From Aplysia californica (taxonomy: Eukaryota): DNA of 64,000 bases. Positions 50,373-63,602 of this stretch are shown here, piece by piece. How positions within the stretch are numbered: the first letter of the stretch is position 1; every line of letters begins with the position of its first letter. The translations under genes were made by a program, and so were the position numbers. The notes below the pieces were generated by a model. That model was not told where the DNA came from. It worked only from the letters and a program-made list of their open reading frames with translations, and did no database searches. The DNA lies in the NCBI RefSeq assembly GCF_000002075.1, contig NW_004797562.1, forward strand, positions 285,901 through 349,900, given 5' to 3'.

Positions 50373-51001
50373 CCCCTTGACTGAGCTGTAGACGTGTCTC
50401 AGTGCTCGGTAAACGTATCCCGTATGGTGGCTGATATCCGAGTCTTGTTTCATTGATAACTCAGCTTCTACTAGGTTTTGAAGTGATATCCCTGGAAAAT
50501 TAATAATTTAATTTTAGCAGTGAGGTCATATCTACTGGGCCGGAAGAATGAATTCTAGTGTGACATGTGTTGTTTCTTCTAACACACATCGTGTGAGATT
50601 GAGTCGACATGTCCGACTCGAAGCACTTGTTCAGTCTAAGTACTTTATACTTGTTACATCATTATGGCTTATTCTACCCCTGTCTTGTCTATGAATAAAG
50701 CCACCTCTTCATTTCTCTTTCTATTGATATATTGTTTGATGAGTAGCCGGAACTTTGTTACCAATAATACTTATATAATATATTAATGCGCTGTCTTTCT
50801 CCCCCACTTCCAGCATACAGAGCAAACGCGCAGAACCAGAGCGCTTGTTCAGTCTTAGTATGGTCTTGTCAATGGATGAATTCATCTCTTCAATTCTCTT
50901 TCTATTGGTACAAGTTTTACCATTCTGTCTCTTGAAATAATAACCGAAAAACCGTTGAATAAAGATTTGGCCTCTTCTGCAAGTGGTTAGCAGTCAAGGG
51001 A
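50373..51001. mobile_element. piggyBac-like MITE just 3' of the zinc-finger stop codon
   Basis: TTAA-ccccttgactg ... cagtcaaggga-TTAA. Confidence 0.75.
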
Positions 51002-51101: not shown

Positions 51102-54100
51102 TCACTGATAATAGTAGTAACTTGGGAAGGTGGCGTTGGGGTTGTACTGAAGCGTGGTGGCTGAAGACGGGCCTGCCCTCATGTCCATAACATTTCTGGA
51201 TGCATCTCTGCTATTGTCCAGTTGTGCAGTGGCCAGTGTTCGAGGAACCTCTCTCATGTCCAGTTCATTTGTGGTCAAGAAGGTTCTGACAGCTGCAATA
51301 CCAGTAGTGTCTCTGAGGTCCATGAGGGTGGTGGTTGCATTGGTGTCTCTCATGTGTAGGATGTTGGCGGGCAGGGCGATGGTATCCATGTTCTGGAGGT
51401 CTGCAATATCATGTTGTTGCTGCTGCAGCTGTTGTTGTTGTTGTTGTTGTTGCTGCTGATGCAGTTGTGGCTGCAGGCTGCCTCCAGCTCTCTCGAGGTG
51501 CTGTAATATATTAATATAATTAAGCAGCGTTCAACCTGGATTAAATAAAACAGTACAAGTCTGCCTATTTCTACTAATTTTTTATTTTTTGCTCAAGAAC
51601 TTAATCAACTCCCATACAGATAAAGGTGCGTAAACTACTGGACTTACAATGGGTTTTTGAAAAGAAAAAAAATTGAGGCTTTTCTCTTTCACATGTCCTA
51701 CCTATCAGCCGCTGAGTCTTTTTGTTGACTCTTATAATGCCCCTGCCAGGGTGGCTCATAAGTTTGGTGAATCATCTATAGCCTACCATGGGTCCAAGTC
51801 AAATTCAAAGCACCCAAGCTGGGAATTGGCTTACATGTAATTAAGTGGCACAGTGCTTACCTGTAGTCAGGTAGTATGGTGGCATGGTTTTCCTATAGTT
51901 AGGTGACATGGCTTACCTGTAGTAAAACTGTAAAGTGGCATGGCATACCTGTTGTTAGGTACTTAAGTGGCACGAATTACCTGTAGTAATGTGGCATACT
52001 TTACCTATATCAACTCTTTATCTCCGGCAAGCGGCTCGCAGTCGGAACCACTTTAATGCCAGTGAGCACATTCCTTTACGAAGACTTCGACATCAAATTA
52101 CTTTTCAGCAATTGCCGAAAACAGGTCTCTTATACCGGAAGTTCATTCATTAGATGAAGAACTATCAAAATAGGTTTGCTAGTTTCAATTTAGTGACCCA
52201 TTTAATGACGTTTATGTTATTTTTAGATTTCGCACCAAAAAAGGGCCCAGGCATAGTGGGTTTCCCCACCTCGGAGATAAAGAGTTAAGGTAGCAGAGCT
52301 TACCTGTAGTTATGTGGCTGAGACTGTCTTTAGTTAGGAAGCCACGTGGCATTGCTTACATCATGCAGTTAGGTGGCATGGCTTACCTGTAGTAAGGTGG
52401 CACTGTCGGTTTGGATGAGGGTTGCCACCGTCTGCTTGAGGGTGGGAGTGGTCAGCAGTAAAGTGGATGAGGGTTCCCTGCGGTGATTGATGATGATTTG
52501 GTGGGATTGTGGTAGAGGTTGTGGTTGCTGCGGTAGCTGTAGTTGCTGTAACTGTGGTTCTGATGGTTGCAATGGTTGTTGTTGTTGTTGTTCTTGTTGT
52601 TGCTGCTGCTGCTGAAGTGGTAAAGGAAGAGGTGCAGCTGCTGTTGCAGGCAATGTGGCAGTGATCTCGGCTTTGCTGACTGCTGGGTCTGGGAGGGTTG
52701 TAGCCGACATCTCAGCAGCCTGGGGCAAAGCTGGTGTCTGTCTCGTCCTGGCTGGGGGACAGAGGAAGTCAGGTGCCACTTAAAAAATCAAATTGTGTCA
52801 ATAGCCTTATAATACAAATATAGAGCAATCTGCTCACACGGAAATCTGCAGGACAGTTGAGTTTTCAATTTAGAGAGGTTGCTTGAAAATAGGGTTTCCT
52901 TCTGTTTAACATTGTTTGTGGATTAACCATATTTGTTTTTAAGTGAACTCCACTGCTCTACTGAGATATGCCTCAGAATTTGTTGAATCCGAGTTGTGGT
53001 TATGAAAAAAAAGTGTAACTAAAAAACGCATTTCTTATTAGTAATGATAGGAACATCTGTTCTGAACGTGTCACAGCACGAGTTTAACGGACAGAACCAC
53101 CAATGATGCCCCAAAATGCTTAAAATTTCAGTGCAATGAAAAGAAGCTCCTCATACCTCAACAATCAGAGAAACCATGGCAAACGACATATTCTTGTCTG
53201 GTACCCTGATAAAATTTATTTCCTGATTACCAGTGTGTCGAAATCTTACCTCCCTTTCCTTTCACTGGGCCTTCTCTCGTGTGCACTTTCGCATGTTTTT
53301 TCAGTGTGCAGGACAATTTGAAAGTGGACCCACACACAATGCATAAGTAAGGACGTTCCCCTGAAAAGTAAATAATAGACCAGTACTTAAAATTCTGTAA
53401 AATGTCCACACTAACTTTATGAATCATATTCCACATATTGCAATACTTGTGTTCATTTTCTTTTGAAATATGTTTTTTTCTCATGATGAAACTTATTCAC
53501 CCAGTTCCAAAATATACACAAATAACTAAGAGCAACAGTGTAGACCAAGGACGTGTTTATTACACATGTCATAGAAGTGTTACTGGCATCCGTTGTATAT
53601 TGGTCATGCGTTTTGGTGTTCCATACCTGGATTTTGATTTCCATGTCAATTTTGCTATGTTGCATGCTAGACTCTATGTTAGACATATCGCTACCTGTTT
53701 TGAGCTACTAAGACCGAGCTCTACCAAAATCATTAGATTATTAGGAGTTGTTATTTGAAGAATTACATTAGAATAAGCTTGATGTTTTGTGAAATTTGAA
53801 ATCTTTGGTGTCAAATTTCTCAAAACTAGGTACTGAGCAGATAAAACTTTGTAATTCTGAGGAAGCGATATGTGGAATACTAGCACACCCACCAGAGTGT
53901 GTTCGTCGATGGTTGACCAGTGTGCTGTGTCGCGAGAAGCTCCTGCCACACGTCTCACACTTGTACGGTTTCTCTAGCGTGTGCACACGTCTGTGGTGAC
54001 GCAGCTCGGCCGGACATTTGAACTTCTTCTCGCAGAAGTCACACGGGTGGTCGAAGATTCCCTGATGGATTTTCATGTGGATTTTGAGGCTGTTCTTCAT

Positions 54101-57100
54101 TTGGTACACCTGAAATGTCAAGAGAAATTCCTAAAAATCTGATGATGTGTAACTTCCTGGTACAGTGGAATCCTGTTATAACGAGAGGGAGGGGACCGGT
54201 GCGAAATGTCCGTTATAGCTGGATTCTCGTTACAAGAGATCCAGTAATAAATTGAAGGGAAATAGTAAAGTAGGCCTAATCTATGAGTTTGGCGTTCCGC
54301 TCATTCCTTTTTGTATTTCCCCTGATGATGATTTGTTCAACATGATGTCTAGGTCTTACTAGATCAAAAATCGAATCAGGTTTATTTCTCTAGGACTAGC
54401 ACTAGTAATGTTGACAGCTCGGCGTTGGCGATCAGACAGAAGGGGCTCTGGCTCTAGGCTAACTCGCCCGCTGTGTTGTCCCCCACCACACCCTGTGGTG
54501 CGTTGCGTCTGCTTGCGCACGTCACACATTCACTCCATCTATCACAGCATTGTGACCTCTACATCCCGCACCAGAGAAGTGAGAGGCACGGTATGCCTAG
54601 ATACACATGTATAATAATATAGACTGGGCTGGCCTATCACGCGATGCGTTCTGCTTGTCTGCACATGCCACACCCTCCCCACTCATTCGCTCCAACCTTC
54701 ATTGTTGGTTCGCGTGAGCTCTCCCATTTTTTGTTTCGCTGGATCACCAACAATTGGCGAGGTTTTAATATGTTTAATTGGTCTGTGGGCTGTGCACAGC
54801 AGCAGCAATTATTCCGCTATAACCGACTCGCGTGACTGTCTGATAGCGCAATAGCAGTATTTTATTTACAAAGATAAAGAAGGAGAAAAAACGGGGTTTT
54901 AGAATAGTGTCTTTATAACAGACTTCTCGTTGTTTCAGGACTCGTTGTAAGTGGACTCCACTGTACACCCATGAGTACAGGGTGTAATTAAATTCCTGTT
55001 ATGCCTGAAAGCATGAGATAGAAATTCTTTGGGGATTGTAGTGTTGACAAGAAAGGGGATTAAAATAATGAGATCTTTGCTATATAATATTCTCTGGCAG
55101 TAAAGGCACACTGTACACAGCAGTTGCTGTTATAACTAATACAGTGGAACTCGGATTCAACGAGGTCGTCGGGCCTGACCTAACATCTCGTTGAATTCGA
55201 GTGTTCGATATAGCAAACGCGGGGTTTTGAGTAGATAATTACAGGCACTGAGCAAGTAATGTACAAGAGAAGTCACAAGTAGTGCCTGAAATGCCTGCAT
55301 ATTATGAGCTGTGTAAAAAAAAAAGACCGATTCGTTCAAACACACACGCCTGTGTCATCTCGATTGTTTACCAAAAAGTTGTGTTGCTGTGTAGAGCCTA
55401 GCATACGGCAACTTTTGATTCCATAGACCAGGGCTCAATTCAGTCTGCAGATCTACGTCAAGACTAGCTTATTATTGTAATAATGATCAGTTGCCAAGGA
55501 GAAAAAAAGACTGACGCGTTTGTATTTGCGACGTTCAACGCCCGGACCGCTAGTGCCCCCTCCCCGACTCGCACACACAGCCACAAGAGTGCAGGCCGCC
55601 CAACCGACCCCTACACACGCCAGAGTAGACGCGTGCCAAGCCAACAACGCATGTGTTGGTTGTAGAAGAACGTATAGGTCGCATGCAATCGGCTTAGTGA
55701 ATAATGGTTCACGATGCAGGTGCAATGGATATTTTCCAGGAATAGACAAAGTTCATTCTGGGAGAAAAATTTGCGAAGCCACGTCTGCGGGGGCTGTTCA
55801 CCCTCTAAGCGGCCTCGTTGAATCCGAGCTCGCTGATTTAAGTGCCCGTTGAATCCGGGTTACTTTTATTGATTTTAAAGAAGAAAAAAACGGGGAATCT
55901 ATCTCATATCGTTGAATCCGCATTCTCGTTGAATCTGAGCTCGTTAAATCCGAGTTCTACTGTAGACTGATGTGAAATCAAAACAATGCAGTGAATTTTG
56001 CTTGAATAAATTAATGTAGATCTGTGTGTTAAAATGAAAGCTTGAAACAAATTCAACAATGAAGAGAAGAATACCCAACAAAATAAATGTACAGTGTCCC
56101 TAAAGAAATTCTTTATATGTAGGTGTTTTTACAACCCCATCGACACAATGGGAAAAAACTCGAGTTAAAAGCAGACTCGATGTACCTTTCCACAAACTTC
56201 ACATCCATACGGCCCCAGTTGTTTGTCTGCCGATTCTGTGTGTCTGCGCTTGTGGGCAGTGAGGTCGTAGCTCCGAGTGAAAGATTTGCCGCAGGTATGA
56301 CAAAGATGGGGACGTTCAGCTGTTGATACACCAAAAATTATTTGTCTTAAAGTTTCACGATCATGGACTTGCAGAGTCCTTGAAACTTGAATTAAAATAC
56401 TTTGTCACGTAACATTTCTCTCTTCTTTTGTATTGCCTCTTATTGAAAATGCAGCTGAGCTTTGTGACTAGTGGTTCTCTTTCATGAAGTGCAGAAGGAT
56501 AGGGAGACAGGTTGCAAGCACGGCACATCTTACATGAGCAAATCAGTACCATAAGCTTTCTTTTACATTTTGCACTAACGAAAATAGAAAGCTCCACACC
56601 TCATCATTGTGGTAATCAGAAACATTGCATGTAATAATGCAACTGTATACAGAGTAGATTTCAAGGACTTGCTGTAGAAATATCGTGCTTGACAGTGTAA
56701 ATAATAGTAATTATAACATATACGGCATGCTATGCTATCCCCCCAAACAGGATACTCTTCTTCTTTCATGAGGGTTTTTTTTTGTTTGTTGTTTCCCCCA
56801 TGTCCTGATTTTGGTGCCCGTTTTTGTTGGTTACGTAAAAAGAAAGTAATGGTGCAGATTGTTATATGAAAGGGGAATTGTTGAGTCGGTAATGATGATG
56901 ATGATAATGCTGCTGATGATGATGATGTTGTTGTTGGCGATGGTGACGGTAATGGTAATTGTGATAGTGAGCATGAGGATGATTATTTATGTTGGCGATG
57001 ATGATGTTCCAATGTAGGAAATGACATGCGTGTTAGTCTTAGTGTTAAGTTCTTTCATGAGGGTTAATTGACACATGTTCCATGGGGGTCTAGGAAATGT

Positions 57101-60100
57101 GGCAGTTTTCTCTTCTCTCTGCAATTGCATCAAACAGGGTGTAAAACATTTTCAATCTGCATGAGCTAGAAGAGGGGAGCAGCAGATGTTCAACTTTCCT
57201 AAACGACCAGTCTAGCAGGAGTGTTGCAAGCAACAGTACACAAAGATAAAAACAGAAATGTTAACAAACTGGTACCTACTTGGGTGTGTGCGGGTGTGGA
57301 AGTAGTAGACACTGCGAGACTTGAAGCTGGCCCCACACAAACGACACGCATACTTGTCCTTGGTGTGGGTACGCCGGTGGATGGCAAGGTCGTGGCCTGA
57401 TTGGAACTTCTTGTCGCAGAAGTCACATGGCATGTCTCGCTTACTGTCATGTGACTTTGCATGGATAGTGAGTCGGAATTTTGTTTTGTATGCCTGTGGG
57501 TATAGAAAGATTTTAGTTGCAGTTTATGATGGTTTCAATTTCGATACAAAAAAATATTTGTGACAACTGTACCATCATAGCACGTCTTTTCCTTTCTGTT
57601 TCAGCAGCCATAAAGTGACCCTGAGCTGTTTTCAAATTTAAATCATGCCTAATCACACTGCTGCAACAAACAGCAGGATCTGGCAATATACAGAGGAGTC
57701 TGCTAAAACCAAACACGGTTAATCCTAAAAGTACTAAAACAGCAGAACAAAAAGTCCCCTGGGTTTTTTTGTTTTTTTGTTTGTGTTTTTGTTAGCAACC
57801 TCTCTAAACTGAAAACCGAGGTTAAACTAAGAAAATCTAGCTGTCCCACACTTTTCAAAACATTTTGAAATGAGTACATTTTCAACCTTCGTAAAGTCTT
57901 CTGCTAAGGGTACAAATTTGTAATGAAGCTCCTATGAATAAATGTTAATTATAGAGTGCATGTTAAAGCAAGCCTCAACTTATTTGAAGCATTAAGGCTT
58001 GAAAATAGCACTTTGCTTTGTCAAAAAAGGAATGGAACTTCAATCCAGCCAATAGAAATAATATTTAAGCATGAAGTTTAGATTTCTTTGTGAACACATG
58101 AGGTCAAGTACCTTCCCACAAATATCACATGTGAATTCACTGGAGTTGTTCTCTCTCTTTGCTCGCTCCTCTTCAGCTGTGTGCGTCAACTTGTGAACAT
58201 TGAGTCCTGAGGTTTGTGAAAATGACTTGCCGCAGATTTGACAACTGTATGGAAGTCTCCCTGTTCCAAAAGAAATTGAATACAGAATACTTATAGTGTA
58301 CATGATGTTTGCCGTATCTTATAGATCTAGCTCGAAAGAATGTAAAGTGGGTGTCGCATTCAACGAGGTTGCCGGGACCTCCTTGTTGTCCTCGTTGGAT
58401 CCGACCTCTCGTTGAACGTGACTAAGGCTAAAGAAAAGAAAGGAGACAAGTTATTATATTACACGATGTAGGCCTACCAATACCAGTAATTAAAACTGTT
58501 GTTCCCCCTGATGACGAGAATCTCAAACAGCATCAGTGTGTGCGTGTTTGAGCGGTGCTCAGGCCGTCATTTCTGCATTTCAAAATTTTTTTTATCCGGA
58601 ACACTTTTCGTGTGGAAACATACCCTCTCACATCTAGGCCTAGATCTACATAAAGTAAAGGCGAGAGCTTGGATTTTCTGATTAGGGGAAGAAAAGAAAA
58701 AAAAATTTTGAACAATCTGGGCAGGGTCCCAAAAATTATTTTTTTTAATTGAAAACAATGGTCTCCCTCAAGACCTACCCTTCTAGAGTTCATCAACTTT
58801 CACCTCACACAGCCCGTATCACGTTCCCTCCCATCCCTACCGTAGGCTAACCCTCACCCATCCTCTTGGCTTTGGGGCCCATTATGAGGCACGCTAGATC
58901 TAGCAACTAGCAATACAATGTGTTAGGAATCGAGGATAGACCTTGCGCTTCGCGTGAGACGGAGAGAAAAGAGAAAAATTCCTCACTTTTGGGGCCGCTA
59001 ATTGCTTTTATTTGGTTATCGCGACCTCATTGAAAGCAACTTCGATCTGTTTGCAAACTCGTTGGAGCTGACGTACATTTACAAAGAGATATAGAGGGGG
59101 AAAAAAATCGGGGATTAAGGATTGTCTCGTTGGAGCCGACTTCTCGTTGAATGCGACCCCCACTGTATCATGAAACTGGAAAAAAGATCCAAATTACGAC
59201 AATTTGTATTTGTACAGTAATAGAAGCGGAGTGACAATGTTTAATAGGACTTATTTGATGTTTTAACAGTGGAACTCTACATTCATGCAGAAGGCATGAG
59301 TTTGACTCCAATATGACACAGTTAGTAAAGGCGAAATATGCTGGGCTAAAGCAGTTCTGGGCCTTGTCTTTTCCATGTACTAAATGACCATTACAGTGGA
59401 ACTCCAATTCAACAAAAGGAGTAGGATTCCCCTGATTTTTTTTATTCATAAAAATCAAAATACAATTAATTCTGATTCAACGAACACATGAATGAGCTAG
59501 CTCGGATTTAACAAAGTCGCTTGCTGTGTGAACTGCTTTTTGCGTCCCATCAGCGGCCTCCTTTCATATCAACACACGCCTTGTTTGCGTGCACCCATGT
59601 CTTAGCATATGTCAGGGTCGGACGGGTGACCAGCACATGTGTGACTGTATGTGCGTGTGTGAGATGGGCGTTGGGGTACAAGCGATTCAGGTGTGGAATG
59701 TCAGTTATAAAGGTACAATCGAGACACACTGGCTACTGATCTATATATTACAATGATAAGCTAATCTTGACATAGATCAATGTAATGAATTGCGTGCTGG
59801 ACTGTGGAATAAAACGTTGACCTGGGCTCTACACAGAAACATAACTTGTTCGGCAAACAGTATGTTATCTAAATGACAGATGACAAAGGCCTGCATTTGA
59901 ATGAATTGGCACTTTTGGAATTTTCCAGCATTTCTTCGGTATCAAAGAAACGAAAATGTTTCTCATTTGAAATCTAACAACTTTTGGTTGAGAAAGTCGA
60001 ATACACTATACATTACTTGCTCGATACCTGTAATTATCTACACCAACACCTCATGTTTGCTCTAAGAAAACTTGGATTGAACGAAATAGAAAGCCTGGCC

Positions 60101-63100
60101 CCATCACTTCGTTGAATCCGAGTTCCACTGTATTGTGTCGATATGCTTCTCTTTATTCAAATTTCAAACAAACTAATTATCCTCACAAGATCACCCGAAA
60201 GCATTCAGAAAGTCTTAAGCCTACCTGTGTGAATCAGCATGTGCGCCTTGAGGGTGCCCTGAGACTTGAAACATTTGTTGCACTCGCTACATGTGTAGGG
60301 ACGGTCACTGGTGTGTTTGCGGGCATGGGCTTTGAGCTCCTTCAATTCTTTGAACTCTTCATTGCAGAATTCACATCGATAGCATTTTTTTGACACATGT
60401 CGCTTCATGTGGGCCAACAATGCACATCGTTGGTTTAGAGACTGAATAAATGAAAGAATAAAGCAAAACATGTTGATGTAAACCAAAATAGAGCACTGAA
60501 GGAGCTGAAGTCCATTTTTCTACAACTGCAGTTCCGTATGTCTGTGTCTGTGTCCAAATGTTTCCTATGTTTACATTGTGCCATAAAAATCAATTTTTCT
60601 CCAAACAGGGAACTTAAGACCTTCAGTTTGTCACCAATATTTGTAACTCTCAAATCACCAGTGCCTTCTACTATCCTATTTCTTTAAACATTTAGGATTT
60701 ACATTATATTATACAAATATGCTAGAACAATAAAAATGACATCAAATAGACTGCTTAGTGTAAAACTCCACCATACACCATTTTGTGACGCATAATGGAG
60801 ATTTTACACTGAGCAGTCGAAGCATGTTCTTGACACAAAGTATGAAGTGCTAAAAAGACTGTACAGTTTCGTATAAGATAAACTAAGGAATCAAAGAGAT
60901 AGTATTATCAGTCTGTTCTTGATGGGTGTCTTGCATTTTTTAAAAATCATATTGGCGCCCATAGTTACCGTAGAGTCTAATTCATCAAACTGATGCTGTG
61001 GCACAGCTACTTCAGAACTTGGCTATTGTGTGTTTAATTCACTCACTACCACAACCGCGACTGTTGCGGGAAAATTAGCTTTGACGCTGTGATACCACAC
61101 CGGCAACCCTCGCGGTTCGCACTTTGGATTTTTTTTTCTCATGTTAAAACCACACCGTTTATGGTACTGGTTCGCCTTTTTCGTAGCCCATTCAATTATC
61201 TTTCATTAGAAAGAAACGAAACCGAAATCAGACCAGCACAAGTTGAGTTATTGATTTTTACTATAGCCATCCTTACAACTAAATTTACTTCCCACTATGG
61301 TAGATCGCTTCTTTGACCGTTTTCGAACATTAGACAACGAAAGTGACTCAGAAACCGATGAATTGGTCGAAGATTGTAATGACAAACTGGGTGGGGAAAT
61401 TTATAAAGAAGAGTAGTAAGGTTTAGTAGGGCCCCCATAACCTAAATCTGGGGTTGCAGTAGTGGGGAAGGGCGTGAGTAGGAGTACTAAGAGAGGCTAA
61501 GGGAACGCAGTTTTTGACCAATTTTTGAAAACTTGTGGAAAAAAAGTAACAATAAAACTGAGCTGTACTTTCATCAGGGCTATCTTTATTTTATTAGTAG
61601 TGAGTGAGTTAAAGATTTCCGACTTTTTTTTGCCCTTCTTGGGCGAGCTTTCTTTTCAGTCTGGTACATGAAGGACAAAGGCTGAAACTAATTTCTAGTT
61701 GAGGTTAGCCTCTAAAATTTGTGCCGTGTAGATCTACTCACTTTGCCACAAATCTTGCATTGAAAAGTGTCTTTCGCATCTTGGCTTTTTTGGCATGACC
61801 GGTCCCGTTTCTTGGGTACTCGAGACTTTGGTTGTTTCTTGGAAGGCTGGGATTTGGAAGTGTCTTTCTTACTCTTAGAGCTCCCCCTGGTCCTGGGACC
61901 AAGCTTTTCCTTTTGTTCTGTTTCTTCCGCATGGTGTGCTTTAATGTGCTCCTCCAATTCTTCTGAAGAAGGGCACCTCTGTAAGCGGAAGATAAAAAGT
62001 TACTTAGAACATCAATTGTGTTTATTTATAAGTCATGGTCTAATCCTTCTTTCTCATTTGATATGATTTCATATCATAATCCATAATGTTTATATGTAAA
62101 AATGTACATTTTCTTGAATGACTTTTTATATTTGCTGTAAATATTTAGTCGGTCACAGATAAAATGAACGCGGAAAACTTAATCCCTGATAGCTCAAACA
62201 TTTTGCCATTCCATAACTGATCGCTTTAATTTTTCATTTTATTCAATTTACCAGGATTATAGAATATGTCAAACACATTTGTCGTTAGCCCCTGGCATTG
62301 GTGAGTTGTCCGTCCCCAACTGTAATTTGCGATACTTTCAGTTGCTTTTCTTTCAATACAGTGCATCCTCTCTATAACGAAATCGTCAGGACCAGAAAAA
62401 AATGTTGTTATAGAGTTGTCGTTAAAGAGAGGCAACGAAAAATTACTCACATGATATGTATATCTGTAAATGAAAAAATCAGGACCTGGGCACCAGGTCA
62501 CTATACAGAGGATGTCGTTTCGAAGGTCATTATTCATTATAGAGAGGCTGCACTGTATTGGGATGCCAGATATTTTCAGTGCCTTTGGGACTACGCAGCT
62601 TGATCCAACCCACCCGGTTTAAGTTAAAGACAAAAATGCAACCCTCCCTGTTTAATTTTTTAGAATTGACCCAATGAAAAGTTTCAAACTGATCTAGTTT
62701 TAAATCACAAAATTTGTTTTCAGTGATTTACTTGCCTGCCCACACATGTCACACTGTCTACTGAATGCTTCTTTTGGATGCTCTTTCCTCATGTGGGCGT
62801 TTAAATTTGAAACATCACCAAAAGCCCTTGAACAAACTGAACACTTGTAGGGCTTTTCTCCTGTATGCACTCTTTTATGTCGAGTGAGTTGATGGGGCCG
62901 AAGGAATTTTTTTCCACAAATGCTGCATTCATACGACTTTTCTTTCTCGTGAATCCATAAATGAGACTTCAGATTCCGTCTGTCTATGAACACTTTTGAA
63001 CAATACGAACATTTGAATTCTTTTGACTGATCTTCAGCAACAGAGGGTTCTAACACATAATCGTCACATATGTCACTTTTTATTATACTAGTATTTGTAA

Positions 63101-63602
63101 TTTGAGACCCTTCGTCTTCAACATCATAAAAGTCATCGTCGAACACAGATTTGTTCAATTTCCTACTTTTATTGTTATTATAGGCCACTTTTCCAGATGT
63201 GTCACCAATTGTGTCAGGGTTCCCATCCTTCCTGTCTGTTGCTGTGAAATCATTTTGGGTCGATTTGCATTGTTGTGCCTTTGTATAGAGAATTTCAATG
63301 TCTTGAAATACAAGTCTGGTTTGCGTTGCTTGCTCTTTTGTGTCAAGGGAGCTACAGAGCAAACTAATATCATTTTCTCTTTGCATAAACTTTGCCACAT
63401 CGCAAATCAGAGAAATTGCAGAGAGTGGTGTATCCAGAAGTTTTATTTTACTTTCCTGGAGAAGCTCAAGAAATAACCCTGCAACTTTTTCAAGTTTGAT
63501 AGCAAAGTCAACACTGCTTGTGCAAGGCTCATGACCAGGAAGACCTGCTACAGCTAACGGACTAACTAGATCTAGTCCACCAAGCATGCAGTCTTCTGCC
63601 AT
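51102..63602 (-). CDS. C2H2 zinc-finger protein with 16 fingers and a Gln-rich C-terminus, about 978 aa from ATG 63602
   Basis: Exons 63602-62736, 61978-61742, 60441-60225, 58260-58112, 57493-57280, 56319-56186, 54109-53893, 53360-53250, 52778-52387 and 51500-51102 splice in frame and restore CxxC-x12-HxxxH fingers and HTGEKPY-type linkers. The start is uncertain: a possible acceptor at 63637 may indicate an upstream exon. Confidence 0.9.
51825..52403 (-). repeat. Degenerate ~24-bp minisatellite of the exon/donor junction
   Basis: The plus-strand unit gtggcatggcttacctgtagtaag recurs about 10 times with variation. Confidence 0.85.
52014..52284. mobile_element. TTAA-type MITE inserted in the splice-donor minisatellite
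   Basis: Perfect 13-bp TIR ctctttatctccg / cggagataaagag flanked by tcaa and ttaa. Confidence 0.75.
54163..54963. mobile_element. pogo/Tigger-like MITE
   Basis: TIR cagtggaatcctgttataacgag / ctcgttgtaagtggactccactg with a TA TSD. Confidence 0.7.
55142..55962. mobile_element. pogo/Tigger-like MITE
   Basis: TIR cagtggaactcggattcaacgag / ctcgttaaatccgagttctactg with a TA TSD. Confidence 0.85.
58345..59165. mobile_element. pogo/Tigger-like MITE
   Basis: TIR aagtgggtgtcgcattcaacgag / ctcgttgaatgcgaccccactg with TA flanks. Confidence 0.7.
59394..60130. mobile_element. Same family as 55142-55962, inverted and diverged
   Basis: TIR cagtggaactccaattcaac / gttgaatccgagttccactg with a TA TSD. Confidence 0.75.
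62359..62555. mobile_element. Short pogo/Tigger-like MITE
   Basis: TIR cagtgcatcctctctataa / ttatagagaggctgcactg with a TA TSD. Confidence 0.75.

What the first reader, a model, noticed from the sequence alone, without database searches (positions are those of the whole stretch)
51825..52403. Minisatellite built from the gene's own 5' splice site: an array of decoy or alternative donors behind a stop codon
Seen: the end of the penultimate zinc-finger exon (GCCACCTTACTACAG|GTAAGCCAT, donor at 52386) is repeated into the intron as a ~24-bp unit. Consensus-like donors survive at 52303 (CAG|GTAAGC), 51980 (CAG|GTAATT), 51948 (CAG|GTATGC), 51916 and 51860 (both CAG|GTAAGC). An in-frame TAA lies at 52371-52369, so any downstream donor gives a stop more than 50 nt before the last junction. 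Established: such stops usually trigger NMD. Inference: the array could act as a copy-number-tunable AS-NMD switch, a U1 sink, or a source of an isoform lacking the last exon. It could also be neutral. A MITE later split the array.
Basis: partly seen in the sequence, partly recalled or inferred. Interest (0 to 1): 0.7.

Follow-up and report, generated by a model that had tools for sequence, protein, structure and literature searches.

The report
Splice-donor minisatellite in sea-slug gene
The end of one exon of a sea-slug zinc-finger gene, splice signal included, is repeated ten more times in the next intron, but the transcripts seen use only the original signal and the copies decay like the rest of the repeat, so this is likely a harmless example of a repeat type already known from human and lancelet genes.

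Summary
Eleven units of a 24-nt repeat run from the last 15 bases of exon 9 into the last intron of an Aplysia californica C2H2 zinc-finger gene. A 271-nt TTAA-flanked MITE splits unit 5. Three intronic copies pair with this genome's U1 as strongly as the real donor. The regulatory reading found no support. The donor 9-mer has decayed as fast as the rest of the unit (16/90 vs 25/150 mismatches). The RefSeq model and the one informative RNA assembly join only the first donor to the acceptor. Units differ 17% from consensus, so active copy-number tuning is unlikely. No NMD-blocked or deep junction data were available, so minor leakage at 52303 is not excluded. The layout is published: human F7, 6-16, CBS, LMNB2 and PDGF minisatellites, and amphioxus 'mirages'. 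It recurs in this genome (4 of 28 loci examined are arrays starting at a protein-supported exon end), and this scan noted it before on other DNA (21 notes, at least 18 genomes, one in this genome). Verdict: new member of a known kind, likely neutral.

The parts
51102..63602 (-). Coding span of a 10-exon C2H2 zinc-finger gene (969 aa, 16 C2H2 pattern matches), RefSeq XP_005101689.1, named 'zinc finger protein 271' of Aplysia californica by the source
52387..52751 (-). Exon 9 (penultimate coding exon), Q/P/T-rich, no zinc finger; its last 15 nt are the 5' part of repeat unit 1
   Evidence: RNA contig X9 record 6 and joints; protein map
52381..52389 (-). Authentic 5' splice site CAG|GTAAGC (first intron base 52386), phase 0, inside unit 1
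   Evidence: joint 52387 to 51500 in X9; RefSeq protein reads straight from exon 9 into exon 10
51826..52401 (-). Degenerate minisatellite, 11 units, 24-nt base unit (15 exon-derived + 9 intron-derived bases), several with 3-10 nt insertions; no copy found elsewhere in the assembly
52369..52371 (-). In-frame TAA in unit 2; ends any read-through five codons after the exon
52298..52306 (-). Unit 4 donor copy (GT at 52303), the nearest strong one, 83 nt downstream; stop would lie 65 nt before the junction
   Evidence: U1 duplex -11.0 kcal/mol, same as the authentic site; no joint seen
51829..52007 (-). Donor copies of units 5-11: 52004 (-7.8), 51980 (-8.1), 51948 (-7.2), 51916 (-11.0), 51892 (GT lost), 51860 (-11.0), 51834 (-4.4 kcal/mol with U1)
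   Evidence: zero RNA depth in X9 over 51610-52002
52010..52288 (.). MITE, 271-nt core (52014-52284) with 13-nt terminal inverted repeats, flanked by TTAA (52285-52288) and TTGA (52010-52013); inserted in unit 5; about 2,000 candidate copies in the genome; 8% from the majority of 11 other copies
51102..51502 (-). Acceptor AG (51502-51501) and coding part of the last exon (132 aa, poly-Q then unique tail, stop at 51104-51102)

Best explanation
This is a tandem repeat that spans the exon 9 donor, and it is likely a tolerated by-product of local DNA duplication, whose extra donors splicing would skip in favour of the first. Steps: (1) shown: unit 1 contains the real donor and the unit has no copy elsewhere in the assembly; (2) inferred: a 24-nt stretch across the boundary was duplicated by slippage or unequal exchange and grew to 11 units, with later small insertions; growth into the intron left the protein intact; (3) shown: a TTAA-targeting MITE then landed in unit 5; (4) shown: the copies now differ 17% from consensus, evenly over donor and non-donor bases; (5) shown for one assembly and the RefSeq model, inferred in general: the most upstream donor wins, as in human F7; (6) inferred: rare slips to 52303 or beyond would meet the TAA in unit 2 and give a short, probably degraded mRNA, so the cost is small and no selection on the copies is needed.
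For: Donor 9-mer mismatches 16/90 vs 25/150 elsewhere (Fisher p 0.66, column permutation 0.62); GT alone 3/20 vs 38/220; AG|GT 5/40 vs 36/200. Intact 8-mers 3 of 10 vs 2.3 expected by neutral decay; intact GT 8 of 10 vs 6.9. X9 shows one unbroken contig across 52387 to 51500 at depth 32, no joint from another donor, and zero depth at 51610-52002. RefSeq protein uses that junction and its cluster has 1 member. TRF recovers only 1.9 copies, so the array is not being homogenised. Donor-motif pairs are no more frequent by locus than a reversed-motif control: 28 vs 27 loci on the same contigs, odds 1.2 per single site, p 0.50. Published cases mostly use the first donor (PMC1557585; PMC3087553; PMC3902484).
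Against: Three intronic copies are as strong as the real donor by U1 pairing. The conservation test has only 53% power against a halved rate, 93% against a quartered rate, and cannot see selection on a single donor. Contigs drop rare variants, an NMD target would be depleted, and X9 is one run, labelled as a second organism. In human 6-16 and CBS the next two copies are used (PMC1557585, introduction). By match count, donor pairs exceed the control 205 to 83, driven by a few long arrays. No orthologous intron and no second allele was seen.
Confidence: 0.78

Rival explanations
1. Regulated AS-NMD: the strong donor at 52303 is a real alternative 5' splice site that adds 83 nt with a stop, sending part of the mRNA to decay or giving an 842-aa protein with all fingers but no last exon.
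For: 52303 is the nearest strong copy, -11.0 kcal/mol with U1, stop 65 nt upstream of the junction. Proximal copies are used in 6-16 and CBS (PMC1557585); intronic donors in the ABCA7 VNTR give premature stops (PMC13747324, passages). Poison splicing in regulators is common (recalled).
Against: No such joint in X9; no second isoform in the protein cluster; no excess conservation; 52303 is the least accessible of the 11 sites folded (opening energy 6.6 vs 5.3 kcal/mol for the real donor). A stop shortly after a donor is ordinary: 7 of 7 other arrays checked have stops in all three frames within 137 nt. The 50-nt rule is recalled from mammals; searches listed no title on it for molluscs.
Confidence: 0.09
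2. U1-binding array: the copies are never cut but bind U1 snRNP, and so help exon 9 definition or shield the last intron from premature polyadenylation at signals brought in by the MITE.
For: Six intronic copies pair with U1 at -7.2 kcal/mol or better; ATTAAA at 52206 and 52057 (inside the MITE) and AATAAA at 51586 lie in this intron.
Against: The U1-pairing bases are not preferentially kept; the array predates the MITE; a handful of sites in one low-abundance transcript cannot act as a sink for an abundant snRNP (inference).
Confidence: 0.06
3. Reverse origin: the repeat existed first and its first unit was recruited as the exon end and donor, so the exon came from the array and not the array from the exon.
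For: Exon 9 is low-complexity and the tail found no relative outside this species (1 protein among 147 candidates), so an ancestral exon end is not known.
Against: The unit is unique to this locus, so no dispersed repeat supplied it; unit 1 is within 1 base of the consensus; other arrays in this genome begin exactly at the donors of conserved exons.
Confidence: 0.07

Closest known systems
Human F7 intron 7 37-bp VNTR, and the 6-16 (IFI6), CBS, LMNB2 and PDGF minisatellites it cites (Borensztajn et al. 2006, PMC1557585; read: part 1 of 6 with abstract and introduction, keyword passages, and the Discussion)
   Same: First repeat unit spans the exon-intron boundary, so the donor is reiterated in the intron; several copies are as strong as the real one; the most upstream donor is the one seen in use.
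   Different: F7 copies are identical and polymorphic in number (5-9); here they are 17% diverged, irregular in length, split by a MITE, and polymorphism is untested. In 6-16 and CBS the next two copies are used; here none was seen.
Amphioxus 'mirage' minisatellites in Adh3, globins BflGb6 and BflGb9, troponin C, PGBD5 (PMC3087553: passages and the section on minisatellites; PMC3902484: one passage; the Adh3 paper PMC117041 was not held)
   Same: Invertebrate tandem duplications of an exon-intron boundary, units of 10-160 nt, many but not all keeping splice signals, reported not to disturb splicing, recurring at many loci of one genome.
   Different: Here a gastropod; mirages show length instability and concerted evolution, whereas this array looks inactive. 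One search (Aplysia californica, minisatellite, intron) listed 2 papers, neither title on such repeats in Aplysia.
ABCA7 intron 18 VNTR (PMC13747324, passages)
   Same: About 25-nt unit at a donor; use of intronic donors gives premature stops.
   Different: There length varies to over 200 copies with measured splicing effects; here 11 decayed units and no effect seen.
piggyBac-type non-autonomous elements (label recalled, from the TTAA duplication; no library call)
   Same: TTAA at both ends, short terminal inverted repeats, many copies.
   Different: No transposase partner was looked for; superfamily not established.

Membership tests
Donor-spanning minisatellite ('mirage'; F7/6-16/CBS type) | Head-to-tail repeat with a unit of about 10-160 nt | tested here: met
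   11 units, 24-nt base; periodicity peaks at 24, 32, 48, 56
Donor-spanning minisatellite ('mirage'; F7/6-16/CBS type) | First unit spans a real exon-intron boundary | tested here: met
   X9 joint 52387 to 51500 and RefSeq protein
Donor-spanning minisatellite ('mirage'; F7/6-16/CBS type) | Splice signal reiterated in the intronic units | tested here: met
   GT kept in 8 of 10 intronic units; 3 of 10 match U1 as well as the real site
Donor-spanning minisatellite ('mirage'; F7/6-16/CBS type) | Locally generated, unit specific to the locus | tested here: met
   DNA and pattern searches of the own genome hit only this array; the tool warns that its DNA search is not proof of rarity
Donor-spanning minisatellite ('mirage'; F7/6-16/CBS type) | Most upstream donor dominates | tested here: inconclusive
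   True in one RNA assembly and the gene model; three raw-read runs had no reads on exon 9
VNTR (variable copy number) | Copy number differs between alleles or individuals | not tested
   No DNA run was laid on the array; 17% unit divergence argues against it (inference)
AS-NMD / poison alternative 5' splice site | Alternative junction creates a premature stop more than 50 nt before the last junction | tested here: met
   In sequence only: 65-534 nt for 7 of 8 downstream GT sites, 9 nt for 52359
AS-NMD / poison alternative 5' splice site | Alternative junction is observed in RNA | tested here: inconclusive
   Not seen in X9, but contigs drop rare forms
AS-NMD / poison alternative 5' splice site | Isoform is stabilised by NMD inhibition | not testable with these tools
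   None of the 24 runs listed is described as NMD-blocked
AS-NMD / poison alternative 5' splice site | Signals are conserved above background | tested here: not met
   Within the array 16/90 vs 25/150; across species not testable
MITE | Short, non-coding, terminal inverted repeats, target-site duplication, many copies | tested here: met
   271 nt; inverted arms; removing core plus one TTAA restores a 24-nt unit; 1,997 candidates, 40 scored; TTAA at the left end in 10 of 11 other copies, at the right end in 7 of 11, TTGA in 1, not reached in 3

The most novel reading that the evidence does not exclude
The donor at 52303, with the stop in unit 2, is a working poison splice site born from a minisatellite: it sets the level of this zinc-finger protein, or makes a form with all 16 fingers but no C-terminal tail, and Aplysia's many other donor arrays are a standing source of such switches.
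Probability: 0.08. Interest if true: 0.55.

Novelty: new member of a known kind. Interest (0 to 1): 0.2.

Why it matters
As it stands it matters little: it adds a gastropod case to a known repeat type. Its modest use is as a natural test of 5' splice-site choice in a mollusc. Four donors of equal U1 strength lie 0, 83, 470 and 526 nt into an 886-nt intron, so deep junction counts would show whether the 'first donor wins' rule from human F7 holds in Aplysia, and whether a 50-nt NMD rule applies. If the poison-site reading were true, it would show a regulatory splice switch arising from a minisatellite in a neurobiology model.

Tried and rejected
No listed holder was on record as RNA; this blank is not used as evidence. 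Thirteen unlaid or partly laid runs hold 0.39-0.46 of the sampled words, about the exon share of the query (0.46), and seven hold 0.64-0.84; only X9 of these was laid, so the shares are not used. Raw poly(A) runs X21-X23 had zero depth on exon 9 and no junction there: uninformative. Copy number across individuals remains open, as no DNA run was laid on the array. Dispersed-repeat origin of the unit: rejected. Recursive (AG|GT ratchet) sites: each unit reads AG|GT, but T content upstream is 0.18-0.41 against 0.50 at the real acceptor, 7 of 8 sites have another AG within 20 nt, and the intron is only 886 nt: not favoured. Structure hiding the copies: the 621-nt fold has z -2.4 on 20 shuffles, much of it the MITE's inverted ends; opening energies do not separate real from copied donors. 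The GCCAC columns look more conserved (2/50), but I used them as anchors to cut the units, so this is not evidence. Orthologue of the tail: none outside this species, weak evidence. Exon labels I recalled for L052, L054, L061 and L062 got no meaningful Pfam or PDB hit. PMC306954 and PMC117041 (Adh3 mirages) were not held and are cited second-hand. PMC10078293: keyword passages only, nothing on donor-spanning units seen. No supplements were opened.

Full report
Observation. The minus strand carries the repeat as described. All six donors, the TAA at 52371-52369 and the acceptor ending at 51501 are at the stated places. With the inserted element removed, the stretch 52401-51826 falls into 11 units of 24, 27, 32, 24, 24, 24, 32, 32, 24, 34 and 24 nt. 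Each holds 15 bases copied from the exon end and 9 from the intron start. The 14-mer across the donor has 5 matches in the window, all in the array, against 0.29 expected; 0 of 100 shuffles reached 5.

The gene. A search with the last exon returned one protein among 147 candidates, 100% identical: XP_005101689.1, named 'zinc finger protein 271' of Aplysia californica, 969 aa, cluster size 1. It maps to 10 coding exons between 63602 and 51102. Its 16 C2H2 pattern matches lie in residues 198-705 (Pfam). Exon 9 is a Q/P/T-rich stretch with no finger. The model joins donor 52386 to 51500 in phase 0. None of the other 8 introns repeats its own junction.

RNA. Four runs were laid. X9, an assembly labelled as a second organism but with no differences in the exon 9 and exon 10 pieces shown, gives three spliced joints with canonical ends, among them 52387 to 51500 on one unbroken contig at depth 32. 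It shows no joint from any other donor and zero depth at 51610-52002. Depth at 52003-52395 comes largely from other copies of the MITE, so the first 83 intron bases cannot be read from the depth table. The three raw poly(A) runs have zero depth on exon 9 and say nothing. Contigs drop rare forms and no run was described as NMD-blocked, so this shows dominance of the first donor in one sample, not exclusivity.

Donor strength. Against the U1 5' end taken from this genome, the duplex energy is -11.0 kcal/mol for the real donor and for 52303, 51916 and 51860; -8.1, -7.8 and -7.2 for 51980, 52004 and 51948; -4.4 and -4.3 for 51834 and 52359. The real donor of exon 8 scores -9.6. So three copies are fully credible by sequence. 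No MaxEnt-type model was available. Use of any copy ends the frame at the TAA five codons past the exon; the stop lies 65-534 nt before the junction for 7 of 8 sites and 9 nt for 52359. The 50-nt rule is recalled from mammals; two searches (listings only) showed no title on it in molluscs.

Selection test. Across the 10 intronic units the donor 9-mer has 16 mismatches to consensus in 90 sites, the rest 25 in 150 (Fisher p 0.66; column permutation 0.62). GT alone: 3/20 vs 38/220. AG|GT: 5/40 vs 36/200. Neutral decay predicts 2.3 intact 8-mers and 6.9 intact GTs of 10; 3 and 8 are seen. Power is 93% against a quartered rate and 53% against a halved one, and nil against selection on one donor only. 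Unit 1 differs from consensus at 1 of 24 bases against 41 of 240 for the others (p 0.066), as expected if only it is constrained.

Age and MITE. The 271-nt insert has inverted ends, 1,997 candidate copies of which 40 were scored, and TTAA at the ends of most other copies. Removing it with one TTAA restores a 24-nt unit, so it inserted into the existing array. It differs 8% (22 of 272) from the majority of 11 other copies, while the units differ 17% from their consensus. TRF finds only 1.9 copies. An old, irregular, interrupted array is unlikely to change copy number now (inference); this was not measured.

Genome context. The unit has no copy elsewhere. The arrangement does. A pair of the 8-base donor motif 8-32 nt apart occurs 205 times, against 83 for the reversed motif; about 4 would be expected from 15,234 single sites (my estimate). 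The first 100 of the 205 matches, the only ones listed, fall in 28 loci; the control has 27 loci on the same contigs (odds 1.2 per single site, p 0.50). So donor motifs are not clearly over-represented among local repeats by locus. I fetched all 28 loci and scanned 16 frames from 13 of them in Pfam and 6 frames in the PDB. Four are arrays that start at the end of a protein-supported exon: L031 (soluble guanylyl cyclase beta-1, E 6e-10), L035 (LamG/pentraxin, E 7e-4), L056 (carboxyl transferase, E 1.5e-5) and L060 (sialin-like, E 4e-8, on the strand opposite to the motif). L029 (sortilin) has a pair but no array. L052, L054, L061 and L062 look like exon ends by eye but got no meaningful hit; the rest were unsupported or not scanned. 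The search misses decayed arrays such as this one, so it is a lower bound.

Known systems. Borensztajn et al. 2006 (PMC1557585) describe the human F7 VNTR whose first unit spans the donor; only the most upstream site is used, by 5'-to-3' priority, and sites up to 91% consensus did not compete. They list 6-16 and CBS (two further copies used) and LMNB2 and PDGF (first only). Amphioxus 'mirages' are the invertebrate counterpart and are reported not to disturb splicing (PMC3087553; PMC3902484). ABCA7 shows the harmful end (PMC13747324). One search listed no title on such repeats in Aplysia. This scan has 21 notes of the kind in at least 18 genomes, and one in this genome; these are unchecked and were seen after I had formed the reading.

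Verdict. A real donor-spanning minisatellite, new member of a known kind, likely neutral (0.78). Regulated AS-NMD through 52303 (0.09), a U1-binding role (0.06) and reverse origin (0.07) remain open. Interest 0.2.

Noticed in passing
L031, L035, L056, L060 (G000 C30, C49, C202, C270): Other donor-spanning minisatellites at the ends of protein-supported exons: guanylyl cyclase beta-1-like (about 4 units), LamG/pentraxin-like (about 15), carboxyl transferase (about 16), sialin-like (about 13, opposite strand to the search motif).
   Followed up: partly
L054 (G000 C127, about 83,030-83,270, minus strand): A 39-nt donor array with 91% unit identity whose first two extra units keep the reading frame open (first in-frame stop 114 nt in). 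If the upstream exon is real, this is a better candidate than the present locus for in-frame alternative donors adding 13 or 26 residues, as in human 6-16. The exon got no database hit.
   Followed up: partly
L061 (G000 C364, about 304,550-305,900) and L062 (C364, about 434,470-435,130): Young, homogeneous arrays after GC-rich open frames: L061 has a 58-nt array (96% matches) followed directly by a 37-nt array, both with donor motifs; L062 has about 21 units of 32 nt. Better places to look for copy-number variation.
   Followed up: partly
window 62735: The first coding intron of the zinc-finger gene starts GC (CAG|GCAAGT), a GC-AG intron by the protein map; no RNA was laid there.
   Followed up: no
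window 52272-52264 and 51704-51696, minus strand: Two more donor-like sites in the same intron outside the units: 52269 inside the MITE (-9.4 kcal/mol with U1) and 51701 (-9.1).
   Followed up: no
window 52397-52382, minus strand: The real donor sits in a small predicted hairpin with the bases just upstream; the change that makes the stop in several units breaks this pairing.
   Followed up: partly
window 54160-54966 and 55140-55964: Two further elements with long terminal inverted repeats (26-28 nt arms, about 800 nt long) in intron 6 of the gene, of one family.
   Followed up: no
window 50482-50985: X9 shows several low-support joints in the 3' UTR with non-canonical ends, in a region with a direct repeat of about 180-220 nt spacing; probably mapping artefacts.
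   Followed up: no
G000 C516:518,523-550,343 and C2468:6,245-12,881: U1 snRNA genes lie in tandem arrays with about 3.1-kb spacing.
   Followed up: no
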